This document shows, piece by piece, positions 211 to 5,147 of a DNA stretch of 9,563 nucleotides. The notes beneath the pieces were generated by a model, which made no database searches, was not told where the DNA came from, and worked only from the letters and a program-made list of their open reading frames with translations. The stretch covers positions 1 to 9,563 of the IMG/VR virus record IMGVR_UViG_2703718802_000013; one strand, written 5' to 3'. The position numbers and the translations under genes are program-made. Origin of the DNA: a virus (lineage: Duplodnaviria; Heunggongvirae; Uroviricota; Caudoviricetes). The first letter of the stretch is position 1; each line of letters begins with the position of its first letter.

Positions 211-287
211 GGGGAACATATGACACATAAAACAAAGGCGACCTGGGGCGGTCGCCAATGGGAAAACACTAAACATAAGCCCGAACA

Positions 288-503
288 TCATAGCGATTTG
301 CTGGCTGGTGGGCAATTATCTTGCTTGTTGGGGCCGTATTGTGCTGCCATTTTCATCCGTTCAGAACGTGAATATTTTTTTAGAAACTCATCAAGGACAA
401 AAGCGCATGGTGCGAATCTTTCTGATTCATGCTCTGGCGCCATATTTTCGTGCTCTCTGTCCGTTTTTTGCGATGGTGTATTGGTTGATTCTTTGTTGGT
501 CAT
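288..503 (-). CDS. small hypothetical protein (71 aa), partner gene of RHH cassette 1; paralog of 954-1181
   Basis: Track ORF starting MTN. Its C-terminal region (FVLDEFLKKYSRSER) resembles that of the 954-1181 product (FALEDFVDKYPRRLK). It sits 57 nt downstream, on the minus strand, of the RHH gene 561-734, and the intergenic element is conserved with the one before 954-1181. The SD is weak. Confidence 0.4.
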   Translation of the reverse strand: MTNKESTNTPSQKTDREHENMAPEHESERFAPCAFVLDEFLKKYSRSERMKMAAQYGPNKQDNCPPASKSL

Positions 504-560
504 TGTGTGTACCTGTAAAGCAATGCGCCGTAGTACCTCACGCCACGGCGCTGATGTTTT

Positions 561-734
561 TTATCCTTTGGGTTCAATACCGCGTTGCTGTAATTCTTTT
601 CGGAGTACTCGCTTGATCCAGGTGGCTAAAGAAGTGTCACCGTCTGCTTTCGCTGCCTCTTCAAGTTGTGCTCTGAATTCTTCTGGTAGCCGCATTTGGT
701 ATGGAGGCGATCGCTTTTCCAATGGTGTTGACAT
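561..734 (-). CDS. ribbon-helix-helix (Arc/MetJ-like) DNA-binding protein, 57 aa
   Basis: Not in the ORF track because it is under 60 aa. My minus-strand translation is MSTPLEKRSPPYQMRLPEEFRAQLEEAAKADGDTSLATWIKRVLRKELQQRGIEPKG. The beta-strand then two-helix pattern (YQMRLPEEF...LATWIKRVLRKEL) resembles Arc-type repressors. The start codon overlaps a palindromic operator. Confidence 0.5.
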   Translation of the reverse strand: MSTPLEKRSPPYQMRLPEEFRAQLEEAAKADGDTSLATWIKRVLRKELQQRGIEPKG

Positions 735-776
735 GGTAATTACCCTTAATTACTATAGTTACATGGTAATTACCAT
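733..776. promoter_or_regulatory. two copies of a palindromic operator-like site (ATGGTAATTACC at 733-744; perfect 14-bp palindrome ATGGTAATTACCAT at 763-776)
   Basis: Read directly from the sequence. GGTAATTACC is self-complementary. The two copies are 30 bp apart and overlap the start codon and presumptive promoter of the minus-strand RHH gene 561-734. Confidence 0.45.
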
Positions 777-792
777 TGTACTTACCGTTATA

Positions 793-834
793 CAAAAAAC
801 AACGCCCCGCAGTGGTGGCTCACATACGGGGCGT
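793..834 (-). terminator. hairpin (ACGCCCCG / CGGGGCGT, 8-bp stem) followed by a T-run on the minus strand
   Basis: Stem arms at 802-809 and 827-834 with a 17-nt loop. The plus-strand A-run 794-800 reads as a T-run on the minus strand. It lies downstream of minus-strand gene 954-1181. It could instead be an RNA structural element of the duplicated module. Confidence 0.4.
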
Positions 835-865
835 CTAACCAAACCATTAATTGAGGTAACGATTA

Positions 866-920
866 TGGCTATAAAAGAGCATAGCTTACTCTTTATACAC
901 ACACAAACGCCCCGGAAACG
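866..920 (+). pseudogene. 5' remnant of an Icd-like gene (first ~18 codons only)
   Basis: ATG at 866 with a GAGG RBS. The translation MAIKEHSLLFIHTQT parallels MVAVNHIPHLVHTQT at the start of the Icd-like gene 1604-1801. Homology is lost after about 55 nt and no FVWRF or TEREAR motif follows. Confidence 0.3.
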
Positions 921-953
921 GAATAATCCGTTTCATAGTTCGGTTTTGTGCAC

Positions 954-1181
954 TCATCCTGGCGGTCGGTTTTTGCCGGATTTAAGCCGCCGTGGGTATT
1001 TATCGACAAAATCTTCAAGGGCAAATTTTTCTGGTGGCATTAAGCGCGGCGCTGGTGGTGGTATTTTTGTTCTGGTTAGTTCTTCCTCAACTCTGGCGCA
1101 GGCTTCTGACTGCCTTTGCCGGATGATTTCATCATCTTGCGTTTGCGTGTCTTGTATTGGTGATAGTGTGTTGTTGGTCAT
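954..1181 (-). CDS. small hypothetical protein (75 aa), partner gene of RHH cassette 2; paralog of 288-503
   Basis: Track ORF starting MTN. It lies directly downstream, on the minus strand, of RHH-like gene 1239-1418, separated by a conserved ~50 bp element that contains a hairpin. Confidence 0.4.
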   Translation of the reverse strand: MTNNTLSPIQDTQTQDDEIIRQRQSEACARVEEELTRTKIPPPAPRLMPPEKFALEDFVDKYPRRLKSGKNRPPG

Positions 1182-1238
1182 GATACTGCCCTGTAAAGTA
1201 ATGCGCCATAGTACCTCACGCCACGGCGCTGATAGTGA

Positions 1239-1418
1239 TTATTCTGATTCTTTGGCCTTGCGACGCTGGCGGCGTTTGATTTCGCCGCGCATGGCAGTAA
1301 CGATAAATTGTGCGTCTGTTTCGTTTTCTTCTTTTACCAAATTCATTTCGCTTAAAACGTCTAGAGGTACTCTAGCAGTTTTTTGTTGTGACTTGTTGTT
1401 GGTTGTACCTGTTGGCAT
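1239..1418 (-). CDS. small DNA-binding protein, probably ribbon-helix-helix (59 aa)
   Basis: Shares the track ORF 1239-1586 frame, but I start it at the internal ATG at 1418, which is preceded by a strong SD (minus-strand AGGAGAACAGAG then ATG). The product MPTGTTNNKSQQKTARVPLDVLSEMNLVKEENETDAQFIVTAMRGEIKRRQRRKAKESE aligns loosely with the 561-734 RHH protein (RLPEEF...LATWIKRVLRKEL versus RVPLDV...AQFIVTAMRGEIKR). Confidence 0.45.
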   Translation of the reverse strand: MPTGTTNNKSQQKTARVPLDVLSEMNLVKEENETDAQFIVTAMRGEIKRRQRRKAKESE

Positions 1419-1484
1419 CTCTGTTCTCCTTACTGTTAGGTGGTGTTCAGTATACGGAGAAAAAAAAATAAAAAAAGACTTGAA

Positions 1485-1529
1485 GTGCAAGTCACCTAAA
1501 AGTAACCTAGATTTCAAGGTGACTTGCAC
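1485..1529. promoter_or_regulatory. perfect 13-bp inverted repeat GTGCAAGTCACCT - N19 - AGGTGACTTGCAC (operator-like) in the divergent intergenic region
   Basis: Read directly. It lies between the minus-strand RHH-like gene (start 1418) and the plus-strand Icd-like gene (start 1604). A TATACT -10-like hexamer for the minus-strand gene is at 1451-1456. Confidence 0.45.
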
Positions 1530-1530
1530 C

Positions 1531-1572
1531 AAAAAAACAACGCCCCACAGTGCTGGAACACATGCAGGGCGT
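1531..1572 (-). terminator. hairpin (ACGCCC / GGGCGT) with a minus-strand T-run; paralog of the 793-834 element
   Basis: Stem arms at 1540-1545 and 1567-1572. The plus-strand A-run 1531-1539 is a T-run on the minus strand. About 75 percent identical by eye to 793-834 and its flank. Function uncertain (terminator or RNA structure). Confidence 0.35.
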
Positions 1573-1603
1573 CTAACCACAAACACTATAGAGAGGTAAA
1601 TTT

Positions 1604-1801
1604 ATGGTTGCCGTAAATCATATACCACACCTTGTACACACACAAACTGCCTTTGTGTGGCGTTTTCTGGCACTGAGTGCCGGAGAATCTCAAATCATCC
1701 ACGTAACCGCCTGGACGGAACGCGAAGCGCGTAACCTTTGCCCGTCCGATTGTGTTGCTGTATACGCCGCCCGTATTCGCCAGGGGTCACATCATGCGTA
1801 A
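1604..1801 (+). CDS. Icd-like small protein (host cell division inhibitor Icd-like family), 65 aa
   Basis: Track ORF with RBS GAGAGG. The motifs FVWRF ... TEREAR ... AARIRQG match what I recall of the Icd-like proteins annotated in enterobacterial P4-like and PICI elements. Paralogous to 2088-2261. Confidence 0.5.
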   Translation: MVAVNHIPHLVHTQTAFVWRFLALSAGESQIIHVTAWTEREARNLCPSDCVAVYAARIRQGSHHA

Positions 1802-1988
1802 AAACCGCTTGCAAAAAATTATAACGGGGCTGTATGCTTCCCCCGTCGCCCACATGGCGACCGGGTTTAGCAGCCTGAATACTACAGCGGACAGCCGCTT
1901 ACATTCCGATATGCGGTTTTTTTGTGTCCGTAAGCCTACCCATACCCGCATTATGGCGGGGCGTAACGGGGGAGCCTTTGCGCTCGCT

Positions 1989-2081
1989 GGTTCCTGTAGT
2001 GCCAGTCTGCTAACCCTGTTACGTCTCGCCACCCCGTTTAGCAGCGTAGTAGCGAGACTCCTTAATTTCACTACAGGAGCC
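1989..2081 (+). promoter_or_regulatory. candidate antisense pairing pair: 1989-2003 (GGTTCCTGTAGTGCC) is complementary to the RBS region of the second Icd-like gene at 2068-2081 (TCACTACAGGAGCC)
   Basis: The reverse complement of 1989-2003 is GGCACTACAGGAACC, against ACTACAGGAGCC at the RBS: 12 contiguous pairs if one G-U wobble is allowed, covering the AGGAG SD. This resembles the seqB/seqC logic of P4 CI RNA and P1 c4 RNA. RNA boundaries are unknown. Confidence 0.3.
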
Positions 2082-2706: not shown

Positions 2707-3006
2707 ATGAAACTTAAATATTCTGGCTTAACTGCCAGTGGCAACACTCACCCTAAATTTACGCGCGGTGATATTTACCGCGACCAGTACGGCGGCACGG
2801 TAATGATTAAGGGCGTGGCGGGACGGTGCGTAACTTACCGCCGTGAAGGTTACGAATATGATTGCGTGATGCCTGTTTATCAGTTCCGGCGTGATTTTTC
2901 TCTGGTACAGACCGCGCCGCATAACGTGCCCACCAGCAGGGAGAAAGCACGCGCCAATATTCAGGAAATAAAAAAGATGCTTAACGTATTCAGGGGTAAA
3001 AAATGA
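2707..3006 (+). CDS. hypothetical protein (99 aa)
   Basis: Track ORF with RBS GGAGAA about 9 nt upstream. Its stop overlaps the start of the primase gene (3003), suggesting translational coupling. Confidence 0.45.
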   Translation: MKLKYSGLTASGNTHPKFTRGDIYRDQYGGTVMIKGVAGRCVTYRREGYEYDCVMPVYQFRRDFSLVQTAPHNVPTSREKARANIQEIKKMLNVFRGKK

Positions 3007-5147
3007 AACTGGCACCGAACGTAAAACAGCAGTCACGCGGCATAAAACACAAAGAAACAGAAGTCATTATTTTTGCGGGTAGTGATGCCTGGTCACACGC
3101 AAAACAATGGCAGGAACATGACGCGCGTATGGCCGGAGATAATGAGCCTCCTGTGTGGCTTGGGGAGCAGCAGTTATCCGAACTGGATAAGCTGCAAATT
3201 GTGCCGGAAGGCAGAAAATCAGTACGCATATTCAGGGCCGGACATCTTGAGCCAGTAATGATCAAGGCGATTGGTCAGAAACTGGCGGCGGCAGGCGTAC
3301 AGGATGCAAATTTTTACCCTGAGGGAATGCACGTTCAGAAGGTGGAGAACTGGCGCGAATATCTGGCCCGTGAGCGGCAGAATCTTTCTGATGGTCTGGT
3401 TATTGAGCTTCCGGTAAAGAAAAAAGATACCGGAAGTCATAGCGATGACGAATTAAAGCCACGCGTTGAAAGTCGCGCCGATGGTGTTTTCTGGGTAACG
3501 CCCAAAGTGGATAAGCAGTCAGGCGAAATTATCCGGCCTGAGACGTGGTTATGTTCTCCGCTTGAACTACTGGGAACGGGGACGATCGGTAAAGAGCATT
3601 ACCGCGTGATGCGCTGGAAAAAAACCGCAAACCATGAAGTCATCACAATGGCGATCCCGTGTGGTGGTATCGGCGACCGTGACGGCTGGCGGTTACTTAA
3701 AGATCACGGGCTGAACGTGACAACCAACGGCAAATACAGGGCAATCCTGGCGGACTGGATGCAGTTAAGCGGAAGCCATGAGGAATGGCAGTTAAGCACA
3801 ACAACGGGCTGGCATTTTGGCGCGTACATCATGCCGGACGGTTCGATCATTGGTGATTCTGAAAAACCGATCCTGTTTACCGGAAAAAGCGCCGCGATTA
3901 ACGGTTATTCCGTGGCGGGTACGGCGGAGGGCTGGCGCGAGAGTGTGGCGCGGCTGGCTGGCGGTAATGCCTCAATGATGCTGGGTGTGGCAACGTCACT
4001 GGCAGCGCCTTTAATTGGCCTTGTGGGTGCTGACGGCTTCGGGGTGCATCTTTTCGAACAGTCATCGGCAGGTAAGACCACCACGCAGAACATCGCATCA
4101 AGTTTATGGGGAGAGCCGGACGCGCAGCGGCTGACCTGGTACGGCACGGCGTTAGGTATTGCCAATGAGGCCGAGGCCCATAATGACGGGCTTTTACCAC
4201 TGGATGAGATAGGCCAGGCCGGAAATGCGCGGGAAGTGTCAACGTCTGCTTATACGCTGTTTAACGGTTCAGGGAAATTGCAGGGGGCGAAGGATGGCGG
4301 CAACAGGGAGATCAAACACTGGCGAACGGTGGCAATCAGCACCGGAGAAATGGACGTTGAGACATTCCTCAAAAGTGAGGGGATAAAAGTTAAGGCGGGG
4401 CAGCTTGTCCGACTGCTTAACGTTCCGATGGAAAAAGCCACGAAATTTCACGAATACAGCAACGGTAAGGAACATGCTGACGCGTTAAAGGATGCCTGGA
4501 CAGCAAATCACGGGGCGGCGGGTCGTGAGTGGGTTAAATGGCTGGCAGGCCACCAGCAGGAGGCAAAGGACACGGTAAGGGAATGCCGCGAACGGTGGCG
4601 CAACCTGATACCGGAGAGTTACGGCGAGCAGGTCCACCGCGTGGGTGAACGTTTCGCCATACTGGAGGCCGCGCTTGTGCTTTCCGGTCATGTAACTGGC
4701 TGGGTCGTGCAGGAATGCCGCGACGCGATACAGCATAACTTTAATGCCTGGGTGAAAGAGTTCGGTACGGGCAACAGGGAACACAGGCAGATTATTGAAC
4801 AGGCTGAGGCGTTTCTTGCGGCCTATGGCCTGAGCAGGTTCGCCCCTGTCAATTATGACCCTGCCAGCCTGCCGATTTCAGAACTGTACGGCTACAGGGA
4901 AAGCGACGGGCGTTATGACGAGCCTGTTTTGTTTTACGTGCTGCCGGAGCCGTTTAGCTCACATGTGGCGAAGGGATTTAACAAGGATGCCGTAGCAAAG
5001 ACCCTTCATGAAGCCGGAATGCTGAGAAAACCAGCCAGCGGGCGGGGATGGCAAATCAGGACACCACGACTAAAACACCTGAAAGGGGCGCGGCTAAGAG
5101 TGTATGGCCTTTTGCTGACGCAGGACCACGATGCTGAAAATGATTAA
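3003..5147 (+). CDS. satellite-type primase/replication initiator (P4 alpha-like or PICI Pri-Rep-like, with a P-loop NTPase motif)
   Basis: 714 aa track ORF with an AGGGG RBS. It contains a deviant Walker A-like motif (SSAGKTT, encoded around 4068-4090). Its size and its position just upstream of an iteron array match replication proteins of P4-like and PICI elements. The domain assignment (DUF927-like) is from memory, not a search. Confidence 0.65.
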   Translation: MKLAPNVKQQSRGIKHKETEVIIFAGSDAWSHAKQWQEHDARMAGDNEPPVWLGEQQLSELDKLQIVPEGRKSVRIFRAGHLEPVMIKAIGQKLAAAGVQDANFYPEGMHVQKVENWREYLARERQNLSDGLVIELPVKKKDTGSHSDDELKPRVESRADGVFWVTPKVDKQSGEIIRPETWLCSPLELLGTGTIGKEHYRVMRWKKTANHEVITMAIPCGGIGDRDGWRLLKDHGLNVTTNGKYRAILADWMQLSGSHEEWQLSTTTGWHFGAYIMPDGSIIGDSEKPILFTGKSAAINGYSVAGTAEGWRESVARLAGGNASMMLGVATSLAAPLIGLVGADGFGVHLFEQSSAGKTTTQNIASSLWGEPDAQRLTWYGTALGIANEAEAHNDGLLPLDEIGQAGNAREVSTSAYTLFNGSGKLQGAKDGGNREIKHWRTVAISTGEMDVETFLKSEGIKVKAGQLVRLLNVPMEKATKFHEYSNGKEHADALKDAWTANHGAAGREWVKWLAGHQQEAKDTVRECRERWRNLIPESYGEQVHRVGERFAILEAALVLSGHVTGWVVQECRDAIQHNFNAWVKEFGTGNREHRQIIEQAEAFLAAYGLSRFAPVNYDPASLPISELYGYRESDGRYDEPVLFYVLPEPFSSHVAKGFNKDAVAKTLHEAGMLRKPASGRGWQIRTPRLKHLKGARLRVYGLLLTQDHDAEND

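What the first reader, a model, noticed from the sequence alone, without database searches (positions are those of the whole stretch)
505..1234. Conserved ~50-bp hairpin-containing element between each RHH gene and its partner gene
The segments 505-556 and 1181-1234 are near-identical (core AGTACCTCACGCCACGGCGCTGAT). Each contains a 7-bp stem (GCGCCGT / ACGGCGC at 525-531/545-551; GCGCCAT / ACGGCGC at 1203-1209/1223-1229, which pairs with one G-U in RNA) and sits exactly between the RHH stop and the partner start on the minus strand. Conservation that is higher than in the flanking coding sequence suggests a functional RNA or DNA element: an attenuator, processing site, internal promoter or recombination site.
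Basis: seen in the sequence. Interest (0 to 1): 0.5.

Follow-up and report, generated by a model that had tools for sequence, protein, structure and literature searches.

The report
Conserved leader hairpin of satellite genes
The repeated ~57-base hairpin element is real: it is the conserved leader that sits in front of a family of small, uncharacterised genes in Escherichia coli phage satellites, most likely a sense-strand mRNA stem-loop that controls their expression, and it marks the point where neighbouring genes are shuffled.

Summary
Blocks 493-567 and 1171-1245 are 81% identical with a 24-nt exact core, although the flanking proteins are essentially unrelated. The element is a fixed-length 57-nt spacer between an upstream stop codon and the ATG of a "partner"-family gene. 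Similar sequence is found in 1663 of 5426 complete E. coli genomes, and none in 50,697 phage records. It is not specific to RHH genes: it precedes partner-family genes in 116 of 130 contexts, including arrays with no RHH. On the sense (window minus-strand) RNA it forms a 6-9 bp GC-rich stem with a UGAGG loop. A U-rich tract and a weak SD follow at fixed spacing. Support for the structure is modest: 89% of cells pair, there are few compensatory changes, G.U pairs favour the sense strand, and RNAalifold does not recover the helix. There is no promoter signal, and terminator features are weak. Genes on either side reassort freely, with breakpoints flanking the hairpin. My best reading is a cis-acting mRNA leader that insulates or stabilises the partner's translation start and also serves as a recombination junction. 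Separately, the opposite strand keeps one stop-free frame (median 357 codons) through the element, which is unexplained.

The parts
504..560 (-). Element copy 1: the 57-nt spacer between RHH1 stop (563-561) and partner1 ATG (503-501)
   Evidence: covariance-model hit 498-566, 91.5 bits
525..551 (-). Hairpin 1 on the minus-strand RNA: arms 551-543 and 533-525, loop 542-534 (CGUGAGGUA)
   Evidence: MFE -18.5 kcal/mol; pair counts
512..524 (-). Single-stranded U-rich tract AUUGCUUUAC followed by the weak SD AGG (514-512); the AGG lies 8 nt before the ATG
   Evidence: Low column entropy at cols 43-55 against 1.41 bits for spacer cols 56-63
1182..1238 (-). Element copy 2: the 57-nt spacer between RHH2 stop (1241-1239) and partner2 ATG (1181-1179)
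   Evidence: covariance-model hit 1176-1244, 84.4 bits
1203..1229 (-). Hairpin 2: arms 1229-1221 and 1211-1203, with one G.U pair from the C-to-U change at 1208 as read on the minus strand
   Evidence: MFE -16.8 kcal/mol
288..503 (-). Partner1 (71 aa), a partner-family gene with the FAPCAFVLDEFL motif
   Evidence: phrog_21027, unknown function; family of 105 clusters, all Escherichia/Shigella; mostly disordered with one helix
954..1181 (-). Partner2 (75 aa), partner family, the type ending in PPG
   Evidence: Alignments A1 and A6
561..734 (-). RHH1, an Arc-like ribbon-helix-helix protein (57 aa)
   Evidence: phrog_228 E 4.9e-7; Pfam Arc E 0.008, below cut-off
1239..1418 (-). RHH2, a YlcI/YnfO-family protein (59 aa)
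   Evidence: NF041551 E 4.7e-17; PGAP annotation in L001
237..256 (-). Canonical intrinsic terminator that ends the leftward RHH1-partner1 operon
   Evidence: GGCGACCGCCCCAGGTCGCC followed by TTTGTTTTAT
220..1599 (+). Stop-free antisense frame (459 codons) that passes through both element copies. It starts 10 nt after the alpA stop and ends 4 nt before the icd-like ATG. In-frame ATGs lie inside the elements at 523-525 and 1201-1203.
   Evidence: 0 stops against 15.3 expected, 0 of 5000 shuffles; conserved across 137 contexts

Best explanation
The element is the conserved 5' leader, or intercistronic leader, of a family of small genes specific to E. coli satellites (the 'partner' family, with an F-A-L-E-x-F-L helix motif). 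It acts on the sense mRNA, which is the window's minus strand. A GC-rich stem of 6-9 bp presents a purine-rich UGAGG loop. The stem ends exactly 21 nt before the AUG. A single-stranded U-rich tract and a weak SD (AGG) follow. I infer that the stem-loop works in cis after transcription, as an insulator and stabiliser of the partner's translation-initiation region. It would stop variable upstream coding RNA from pairing with the RBS. After intercistronic cleavage it could protect the ends of the RNAs. This would make partner expression independent of whichever gene lies upstream. Because it is the only DNA shared between hypervariable neighbours, it also serves as the homologous-recombination crossover point that reassorts upstream (RHH) and partner alleles. 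Shown here: the anatomy, the fixed spacing, the link to partner-family genes, the strand bias of the pairing, the lack of promoter and of strong terminator signals, and the mosaicism. Inferred: any effect on translation or mRNA stability.
For: The length is fixed at 57 nt, with no indels in the 51 unique variants collected first or in the 61 collected later. The element precedes an ATG at column 64 in 122 of 130 distinct contexts, and a partner-family gene in 116 of 130. It precedes three successive paralogs in L349, which has no RHH, and the first of those copies lies upstream of the first gene of the array. The hairpin is in the MFE structure of 54 of 61 variants. The sense-strand fold is more stable than the antisense fold in 55 of 61 (-14.5 vs -11.1 kcal/mol). 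On 37 distinct stem-loops, 89.2% of cells pair (0 of 500 shuffles reach this). Seven cells in 4 pairs change on both sides (4 of 500), and the covariation score is reached by 7 of 500 shuffles. Examples are C-G to U-A at pair 5 in L348, with U.G intermediates in L355 and L349, and pairs 1 and 2 both U-A in L354. Non-Watson-Crick cells are 49 G.U plus 36 mismatches on the sense strand, against 9 G.U plus 76 mismatches on the antisense strand. Conservation is at nucleotide level: entropy is about 0.4-0.6 bits for cols 12-55 and 1.41 bits for the SD-ATG spacer, with no codon periodicity. The hairpin persists, with compensatory changes, in L354/L357, where the long antisense frame is absent. Mosaicism: 13 of 17 upstream-gene clusters join two or more partner clusters, and breakpoints fall on either edge of the hairpin.
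Against: There are no expression data of any kind. Covariation is thin. The family is confined to Escherichia, so sequences are close. The two stricter measures are not significant (pairs changed on both sides 44 of 500; further pair types 55 of 500). RNAalifold does not recover the helix at all. The inner three pairs are often broken: pair 22-36 in 11 of 37 variants, and three pairs in the most abundant 'ATAG/CGCA' variant. Fold energy against shuffles is unremarkable. The loop and the 3' tail are as conserved as the stem, so sequence rather than structure may be what is selected. The element survives in variants that have lost the partner gene. One partner paralog (gene D of L349) lacks it.
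Confidence: 0.5

Rival explanations
1. The element is a weak intrinsic terminator or attenuator. Part of the transcription from the RHH promoter would stop at the hairpin, giving more RHH than partner. A ribosome terminating 9 nt upstream could modulate this.
For: The stem is GC-rich at -14.5 kcal/mol on average and is followed by AUUGCUUUAC. The TransTermHP-like tail score is at or below -2.5 in 53 of 61 variants. The upstream stop codon sits at a fixed column 4-6 in 80 of 122 contexts. The element is retained after RHH when the partner is deleted.
Against: The terminator scan did not call it. No variant has a tail score at or below -3.5, and the common AUUGCUAUGC variants are poorer still. 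The loop is 9 nt. Three copies occur in series in one operon and one lies upstream of its first gene, which would nearly silence the distal genes. A canonical terminator already ends the operon at 256-237.
Confidence: 0.15
2. The element is only a recombination linker. It would be a patch of homology kept, or repeatedly homogenised, because crossovers there reshuffle immunity (RHH) and partner alleles, and it would have no RNA function.
For: Reassortment is extensive and breakpoints cluster at both edges of the hairpin. The RHH tail codons and the first partner codons are also conserved at nucleotide level.
Against: This does not explain the strand-biased G.U pattern, the compensatory changes in divergent copies, or the fixed distance to the ATG. 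It also does not explain why the 8 nt between SD and ATG vary freely while cols 12-55 do not. The breakpoint result is partly circular, because the conserved block defines where divergence starts.
Confidence: 0.15
3. Conservation is imposed from the + strand. The element would be part of, or the internal start of, the long stop-free + frame that runs antisense through the RHH gene to the icd-like gene.
For: One + frame is open through every element copy that lies between alpA and icd. An in-frame start codon inside the element (523-525, 1201-1203) is ATG in most variants and GTG in L348 and L310. It is the first ATG of the frame in partner-less and BRO-N variants. The spacer length is always a multiple of 3 (57 nt, or 39 nt in L349/L352).
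Against: Variability shows no codon periodicity. No SD lies upstream of the + strand ATG. The translated + ORF matches no protein family. The element keeps its hairpin in L354/L357, where no long + frame exists. The + strand hairpin is weaker.
Confidence: 0.1
4. The element is a double-stranded DNA site, with inverted repeats GCGCC/GGCGC 22 bp apart, bound by an island or helper protein such as AlpA or the partner.
For: The outer half-sites are the most conserved columns.
Against: One-sided transitions break the DNA symmetry but keep RNA pairing. The RHH proteins next to it are unrelated, and their own operators are elsewhere (733-776, 1485-1529). The partner model is mostly disordered.
Confidence: 0.05
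5. The element encodes a P22 sar-like cis-antisense RNA, transcribed on the + strand from inside the partner gene and ending at the hairpin.
For: The arrangement of an Arc-like gene, a hairpin and a downstream gene recalls P22 arc-ant (from my own knowledge). In copy 1 a T-run follows the + strand hairpin.
Against: There is no conserved promoter on the + strand. The T-run exists only behind Arc-type RHH genes, and YlcI-type copies have GATAGTGATTATTC. A + terminator would conflict with the open + frame.
Confidence: 0.03

Closest known systems
Intercistronic or 5'-leader stabilising stem-loops in bacterial operons (for example the papB-papA processing region and the ompA 5' hairpin; from my own knowledge)
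   Same: A stable hairpin lies in a short untranslated spacer just upstream of an RBS, inside a polycistronic mRNA, with an AU-rich single-stranded tract beside it (GC|AUU fits the loose RNase E motif RN|WUU).
   Different: No processing or half-life data exist here. The loop sequence (UGAGG) and the 3' tail are conserved as strongly as the stem. The element is a portable unit repeated before each paralog.
Conserved linker or boundary sequences at module junctions of lambdoid phages (from my own knowledge)
   Same: A short conserved block lies between highly mosaic genes, alleles on both sides reassort, and breakpoints sit at its edges.
   Different: This block also has a strand-biased hairpin, a fixed distance to the start codon, and some compensatory changes.
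P22 immI arc-ant intercistronic region with sar antisense RNA (from my own knowledge)
   Same: An Arc-like RHH gene is followed by a hairpin-containing spacer and a second gene, in an immunity-type region. The same island carries a P1-type C4 antisense RNA.
   Different: There is no conserved antisense promoter or terminator. The downstream gene is a 57-80 aa disordered protein, not an antirepressor of the Ant type.
Integron attC (59-base element) sites (from my own knowledge)
   Same: An imperfect inverted repeat of about 57 nt is repeated at the junctions of small-gene arrays.
   Different: I saw no GTTRRRY core by eye. No IntI-type integrase was looked for; the island integrases seen in related loci are tyrosine recombinases annotated at chromosomal att sites. 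The length is fixed rather than variable, and the repeat lies upstream of the gene it travels with.

Membership tests
Any Rfam 15 RNA family | A covariance-model match at or near the family's gathering score | tested here: not met
   cmscan of the whole window at E<=1 gives nothing at 493-567 or 1171-1245. The only hits above or near gathering score are C4 (1949-2036) and c4-a1b1.
Intrinsic (Rho-independent) terminator | A GC-rich stem-loop | tested here: met
   A 6-9 bp stem with mean energy -14.5 kcal/mol
Intrinsic (Rho-independent) terminator | A U-tract directly after the stem | tested here: not met
   Not called by the scan. Tail score has mean -2.58 and best -3.11, where a perfect run gives -7.1.
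Intrinsic (Rho-independent) terminator | A position at the end of a transcription unit | tested here: not met
   It lies before a gene in 122 of 130 contexts and occurs up to three times in series. The operon's own terminator is at 256-237.
Sigma-70 internal promoter | -35 and -10 hexamers with 16-18 nt spacing, conserved among copies | tested here: not met
   No site in or next to the element on either strand. The best candidate by eye, TTGTTG-17-TAAAGC/T, is 8/12 at most and is lost in common variants.
P22 sar-type cis-antisense RNA | An antisense promoter inside the downstream gene and a terminator in the spacer | tested here: not met
   no promoter, and the T-run is present only behind Arc-type RHH genes
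Structured cis-regulatory mRNA leader (generic class) | A helix conserved on the sense strand, with covariation | tested here: inconclusive
   89.2% of cells paired (0/500), 7 compensatory cells (4/500), covariation score 7/500. But pairs changed on both sides 44/500 and further pair types 55/500, and RNAalifold does not recover the helix. G.U bias favours the sense strand, 49 vs 9.
Structured cis-regulatory mRNA leader (generic class) | A fixed position relative to the start codon of the gene it travels with | tested here: met
   The stem ends 21 nt before the ATG in all 61 variants, with no indels. A partner-family gene lies downstream in 116 of 130 contexts.
Structured cis-regulatory mRNA leader (generic class) | A measurable effect on expression of the downstream gene | not testable with these tools
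   Needs reporter fusions and RNA end mapping
CsrA-type leader (GGA in a hairpin loop plus GGA at the SD) | Two GGA motifs, one in the loop and one overlapping the SD | tested here: inconclusive
   GAGGAA loops and CAGGAC SDs occur in many variants, but both window copies have AGGU/AGGG instead. Judged by eye only.
Integron attC | R''/L''-L'/R' boxes with a GTTRRRY core, and an IntI integrase nearby | not tested
   No GTTRRRY core was seen by eye in the aligned element. No formal attC model or IntI search was run.

The most novel reading that the evidence does not exclude
The element may be a two-strand device inside an unusual regulatory layout. On the sense strand it would be the partner leader hairpin. 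On the antisense strand it carries a conserved in-frame AUG/GUG and is threaded by a stop-free reading frame. That frame runs from the end of alpA (or from the element itself) antisense through the partner genes, the RHH repressor gene and its operators. It is then fused to, or ends within 30 nt of the start of, the icd-like gene at the head of the replication operon. The frame would exist to keep a helper-induced alpA read-through transcript covered by ribosomes, and so resistant to Rho and able to pass repressor-bound operators. This would let the satellite bypass its own RHH and C4-RNA immunity while silencing the repressor operon by convergent transcription.
Probability: 0.15. Interest if true: 0.75.

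Novelty: new member of a known kind. Interest (0 to 1): 0.45.

Why it matters
The element marks an unannotated and very common regulatory module. Sequence similar to it is found in about 30% of complete E. coli genomes, up to 7 places per genome, inside phage satellites that spread virulence and defence genes. It gives a compact handle, a 69-position covariance model, for finding the uncharacterised partner-gene family and the immunity region of these islands. If the hairpin is an RBS insulator or stabiliser that lets partner genes be swapped behind any repressor allele, it shows how satellites keep expression constant while shuffling modules. The stop-free antisense frame around it is a separate, statistically solid anomaly. 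It could expose a translation-coupled read-through switch in satellite induction.

Tried and rejected
1. My genome contigs pattern scan (ATCAGCGCC-N12-24-GGCGCATT) was too loose. Loci L006-L125 were ignored.
2. Rfam at E<=1 has no family at the element.
3. The promoter and terminator scan found nothing in the element.
4. Among close relatives (A2, 27 sequences) there is no compensatory change and shuffles do as well. Covariation appeared only after I fetched divergent partner genes.
5. RNAalifold on A5 gives essentially no structure.
6. I searched the window for a trans RNA complementary to the loop. There were 22 matches to GTACCTCAC at up to 2 mismatches against 17 expected, and the only notable ones are the reverse complement of the icd RBSs. 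I rejected this.
7. Coding explanations fail. There is no 3-periodicity. The in-frame read-through peptide between RHH and partner is interrupted by stops in common variants. The + ORF has no Pfam or NCBIfam match.
8. The partner structure has mean pLDDT 65 with one helix and is too poor for a fold search.
9. Collections: no match in phages, and only 8 E. coli/E. albertii 'plasmid' records.
10. Literature: I found no description of the element, the partner family or the antisense frame in the held library.
11. Several look-ups failed for technical reasons.

Full report
**Setting.** The window is a phage-inducible chromosomal island (PICI)-type satellite of E. coli.
- On the + strand it carries AlpA (1-210), two Icd-like genes (1604-1801, 2088-2261), DUF4222, a DUF927 primase (3003-5147) and PerC.
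- It also carries a lambda-E-type major capsid protein, a head-decoration D homolog and a Nu1-like small terminase.
- The first 2.6 kb is 99.7% identical (87% of it aligned) to an island between cspD and clpS in strain STEC17-190.
- Rfam finds a P1-type C4 antisense RNA (1949-2036, 72 bits) and its a1/b1 target (1832-1881), so this is an immI-like control region.
- On the minus strand lie two tandem modules:
  - RHH1 (734-561, Arc-like), a spacer, then partner1 (503-288), ending at a canonical terminator (256-237).
  - RHH2 (1418-1239, YlcI/YnfO family), a spacer, then partner2 (1181-954).

**Observation.**
- Blocks 493-567 and 1171-1245 are 81% identical, with an exact 24-nt core.
- The two RHH proteins are unrelated by BLASTP (E 1.9) and the partners barely related (E 0.01).
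- Each spacer is exactly 57 nt.
- On the minus-strand RNA the helix is 9 bp (GCGCCGUGG/CUACGGCGC) with a 9-nt loop, at -18.5 and -16.8 kcal/mol. These energies are not exceptional against shuffles.
- The single stem difference in copy 2 gives a G.U pair on the minus strand and an A.C mismatch on the + strand.

**Distribution.**
- The block matches 2769 places in 1663 of 5426 complete E. coli genomes. Often only about 80 nt match.
- It is absent from 50,697 phage records. It occurs in 8 E. coli/E. albertii 'plasmid' records, one only 10.8 kb long, which I take to be an excised island without having inspected it.
- A profile search for the partner protein against 5.8 billion proteins finds 105 clusters. 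Every one that carries a source name is from Escherichia or Shigella. All are 'hypothetical' and none has a Pfam domain.
- AlphaFold models the partner as mostly disordered, with one confident helix over the conserved F-A-L-E-x-F-L motif.

**What the element belongs to.** I collected 61 unique variants from IMG/VR contigs and genome assemblies.
- All are ungapped and in register.
  - The upstream stop codon is at column 4-6 in most variants.
  - The stem occupies columns 16-24 and 34-42.
  - The loop is columns 25-33, with consensus YNUGAGGNA.
  - A U-rich tract occupies columns 43-52, the AGG of the SD columns 53-55, and the ATG columns 64-66.
- In 130 distinct contexts an ATG sits at column 64 in 122, and a partner-family gene follows in 116.
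- In L349 there is no RHH at all. Four partner paralogs lie in a row, the element precedes the first three, and the first copy lies upstream of the first gene of the array.
- About 10% of islands have lost the partner but keep the element after the RHH.
- So the element is the leader of partner-family genes, not a feature of RHH-partner pairs.

**Is it RNA, and on which strand?**
- Among close relatives there is no covariation.
- Divergent copies add real compensatory changes:
  - Pair 5 goes from C-G to U-A in L348, with U.G intermediates in L355 and L349.
  - Pairs 1 and 2 are both U-A in L354.
  - Pair 9 goes from G-C to A-U in two degenerate copies.
- On 37 distinct stem-loops:
  - 89.2% of cells pair, reached by 0 of 500 shuffles.
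  - 7 cells change on both sides (4 of 500).
  - The covariation score is reached by 7 of 500 shuffles.
  - The two stricter measures are not significant (44 of 500 and 55 of 500).
- RNAalifold does not recover the helix.
- Non-Watson-Crick cells are 49 G.U plus 36 mismatches when read as minus-strand RNA. They are 9 G.U plus 76 mismatches when read as + strand RNA.
- The sense fold is the more stable in 55 of 61 variants.
- Variability shows no codon periodicity: 0.66, 0.54 and 0.73 bits for the three phases.
- The 8 nt between SD and ATG are about three times more variable (1.41 bits) than columns 12-55. This argues against mere recency and against a coding constraint.
- I conclude that a sense-strand RNA hairpin is the best-supported reading, at moderate strength.

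**What it is not.**
- No sigma-70-like promoter lies in or beside it on either strand.
- It is a poor terminator. It was not called by the scan, the tail score averages -2.58 and is never at or below -3.5, and up to three copies occur in series.
- A sar-like antisense RNA lacks both a conserved promoter and a conserved terminator.
- No Rfam family matches.

**Recombination.**
- 13 of 17 upstream-gene clusters are joined to two or more partner clusters. One RHH allele is joined to nine.
- 9 of 16 partner clusters are joined to two or more upstream clusters.
- In pairs that share the partner but differ upstream, the identity breakpoint falls at columns -30 to +14 in 551 of 617 pairs.
- In pairs that share the upstream gene, 49 of 68 breakpoints fall between columns 15 and 99, with 32 at columns 43-69.
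- The hairpin is therefore the shared homology between two hypervariable flanks. This is partly circular but shows sharp module boundaries.

**Mechanism (inferred).** The hairpin keeps a fixed distance to the RBS, the tract downstream is open and U-rich, and the element travels with the partner gene while upstream genes are exchanged freely. I therefore favour a portable translation-initiation leader. Its stem-loop would insulate and/or stabilise the partner's RBS region in whatever transcript it lands in. A loose RNase E motif (GC|AUU) directly 3' of the stem makes processing plausible. An attenuator role, a pure recombination linker, and a + strand role are the main rivals.

**An unexpected finding.** The + strand has one frame with no stop codon from 211 to 1596 (ORF 220-1599, 459 codons). 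This frame runs antisense to all four minus-strand genes and every spacer.
- Codon-order and dinucleotide-preserving shuffles expect 15.3 stops, and 0 of 5000 shuffles have none.
- The same holds in 137 distinct complete contexts. The median is 357 codons, and the other two + frames carry a median of 20 and 22 stops over the same interval.
- The frame is fused in phase to the icd-like gene in 89 of 134 contexts. It ends 0-30 nt before the icd ATG in 28 more.
- In 65 of 102 contexts it begins within 100 nt of the alpA end.
- In the window, all four minus-strand genes share one phase with it, so third codon positions coincide.
- In partner-less and BRO-N variants the first ATG of the frame is the conserved ATG inside the element.
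- The only clear exceptions are L354 and L357, where the partner array is divergent from alpA.
- The translation matches no family. PGAP labels fragments of it as 'Icd-like, incomplete'.
- I could not explain this. A translation-coupled read-through from alpA into the replication operon is my working hypothesis.
- It may explain why the spacer length is always a multiple of three.
- It does not explain the element, because the hairpin persists where the frame is absent.

**Verdict.** The element is real, widespread and unannotated. It is most likely an ordinary kind of cis-acting mRNA leader, in an uncharacterised and recombination-prone satellite module. The surrounding antisense open frame is the more surprising feature and deserves its own follow-up.

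Noticed in passing
window 211-1599 (+); also L001-L005, L126-L358: One + strand frame is free of stop codons across the whole antisense RHH/partner region (459 codons; 0 stops against 15.3 expected, 0 of 5000 shuffles). This is conserved in 137 distinct contexts (median 357 codons). The frame starts near the alpA stop and is fused to, or ends just before, the icd-like gene. It is absent only where the partner array is divergent from alpA (L354/L357).
   Followed up: partly
window 1832-2036 (+): Rfam finds a P1/P7-type C4 antisense RNA (1949-2036, 72.2 bits), its a1/b1 target (1832-1881, 45.5 bits, just under gathering score) and a sub-threshold IsrK-like match (1845-1923). All lie between the two icd-like genes and inside an open frame (1794-2261) that is in phase with the second icd-like gene.
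   Followed up: no
window 794-841 and 1532-1579: A second repeat is conserved between the two modules (88% over 48 nt). On the minus strand it is a terminator-like hairpin plus T-run, lying opposite the 5' leader and RBS of the icd-like gene. There is a weak SymR-antitoxin-like Rfam match at 1536-1609 (-), E 0.17. This may be a cis-antisense RNA against the icd RBS.
   Followed up: no
window 733-776 and 1485-1529: Perfect inverted repeats lie in the RHH-icd divergent promoter regions: ATGGTAATTACC/GGTAATTACCAT, and GTGCAAGTCACCT/AGGTGACTTGCAC. They differ between the two modules, as expected for operators specific to each RHH type.
   Followed up: no
window 866-953: Module 1 ends in a truncated icd-like start (ATGGCTATAAAAGAGCAT...ACACACACAAACGCCCCGG), which shares a 22-nt repeat with 788-809. 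The two modules therefore look like a tandem join of two island regulatory regions, and most related islands carry only one.
   Followed up: partly
L349 2258-3247; L354/L357: Some islands carry arrays of three or four partner-family paralogs, all in the same reading phase and with no RHH gene. This suggests a diversifying family of small, mostly disordered helix-motif proteins, possibly aimed at helper or host targets.
   Followed up: partly
L130 (IMG/VR) about 350 nt downstream of the element; L005 2179-2756: The slot between alpA and the element is variable. Some islands hold an AT-rich cargo gene there (a 178-aa predicted membrane protein). Others hold a BRO-N domain gene that is frameshifted in L005.
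   Followed up: no
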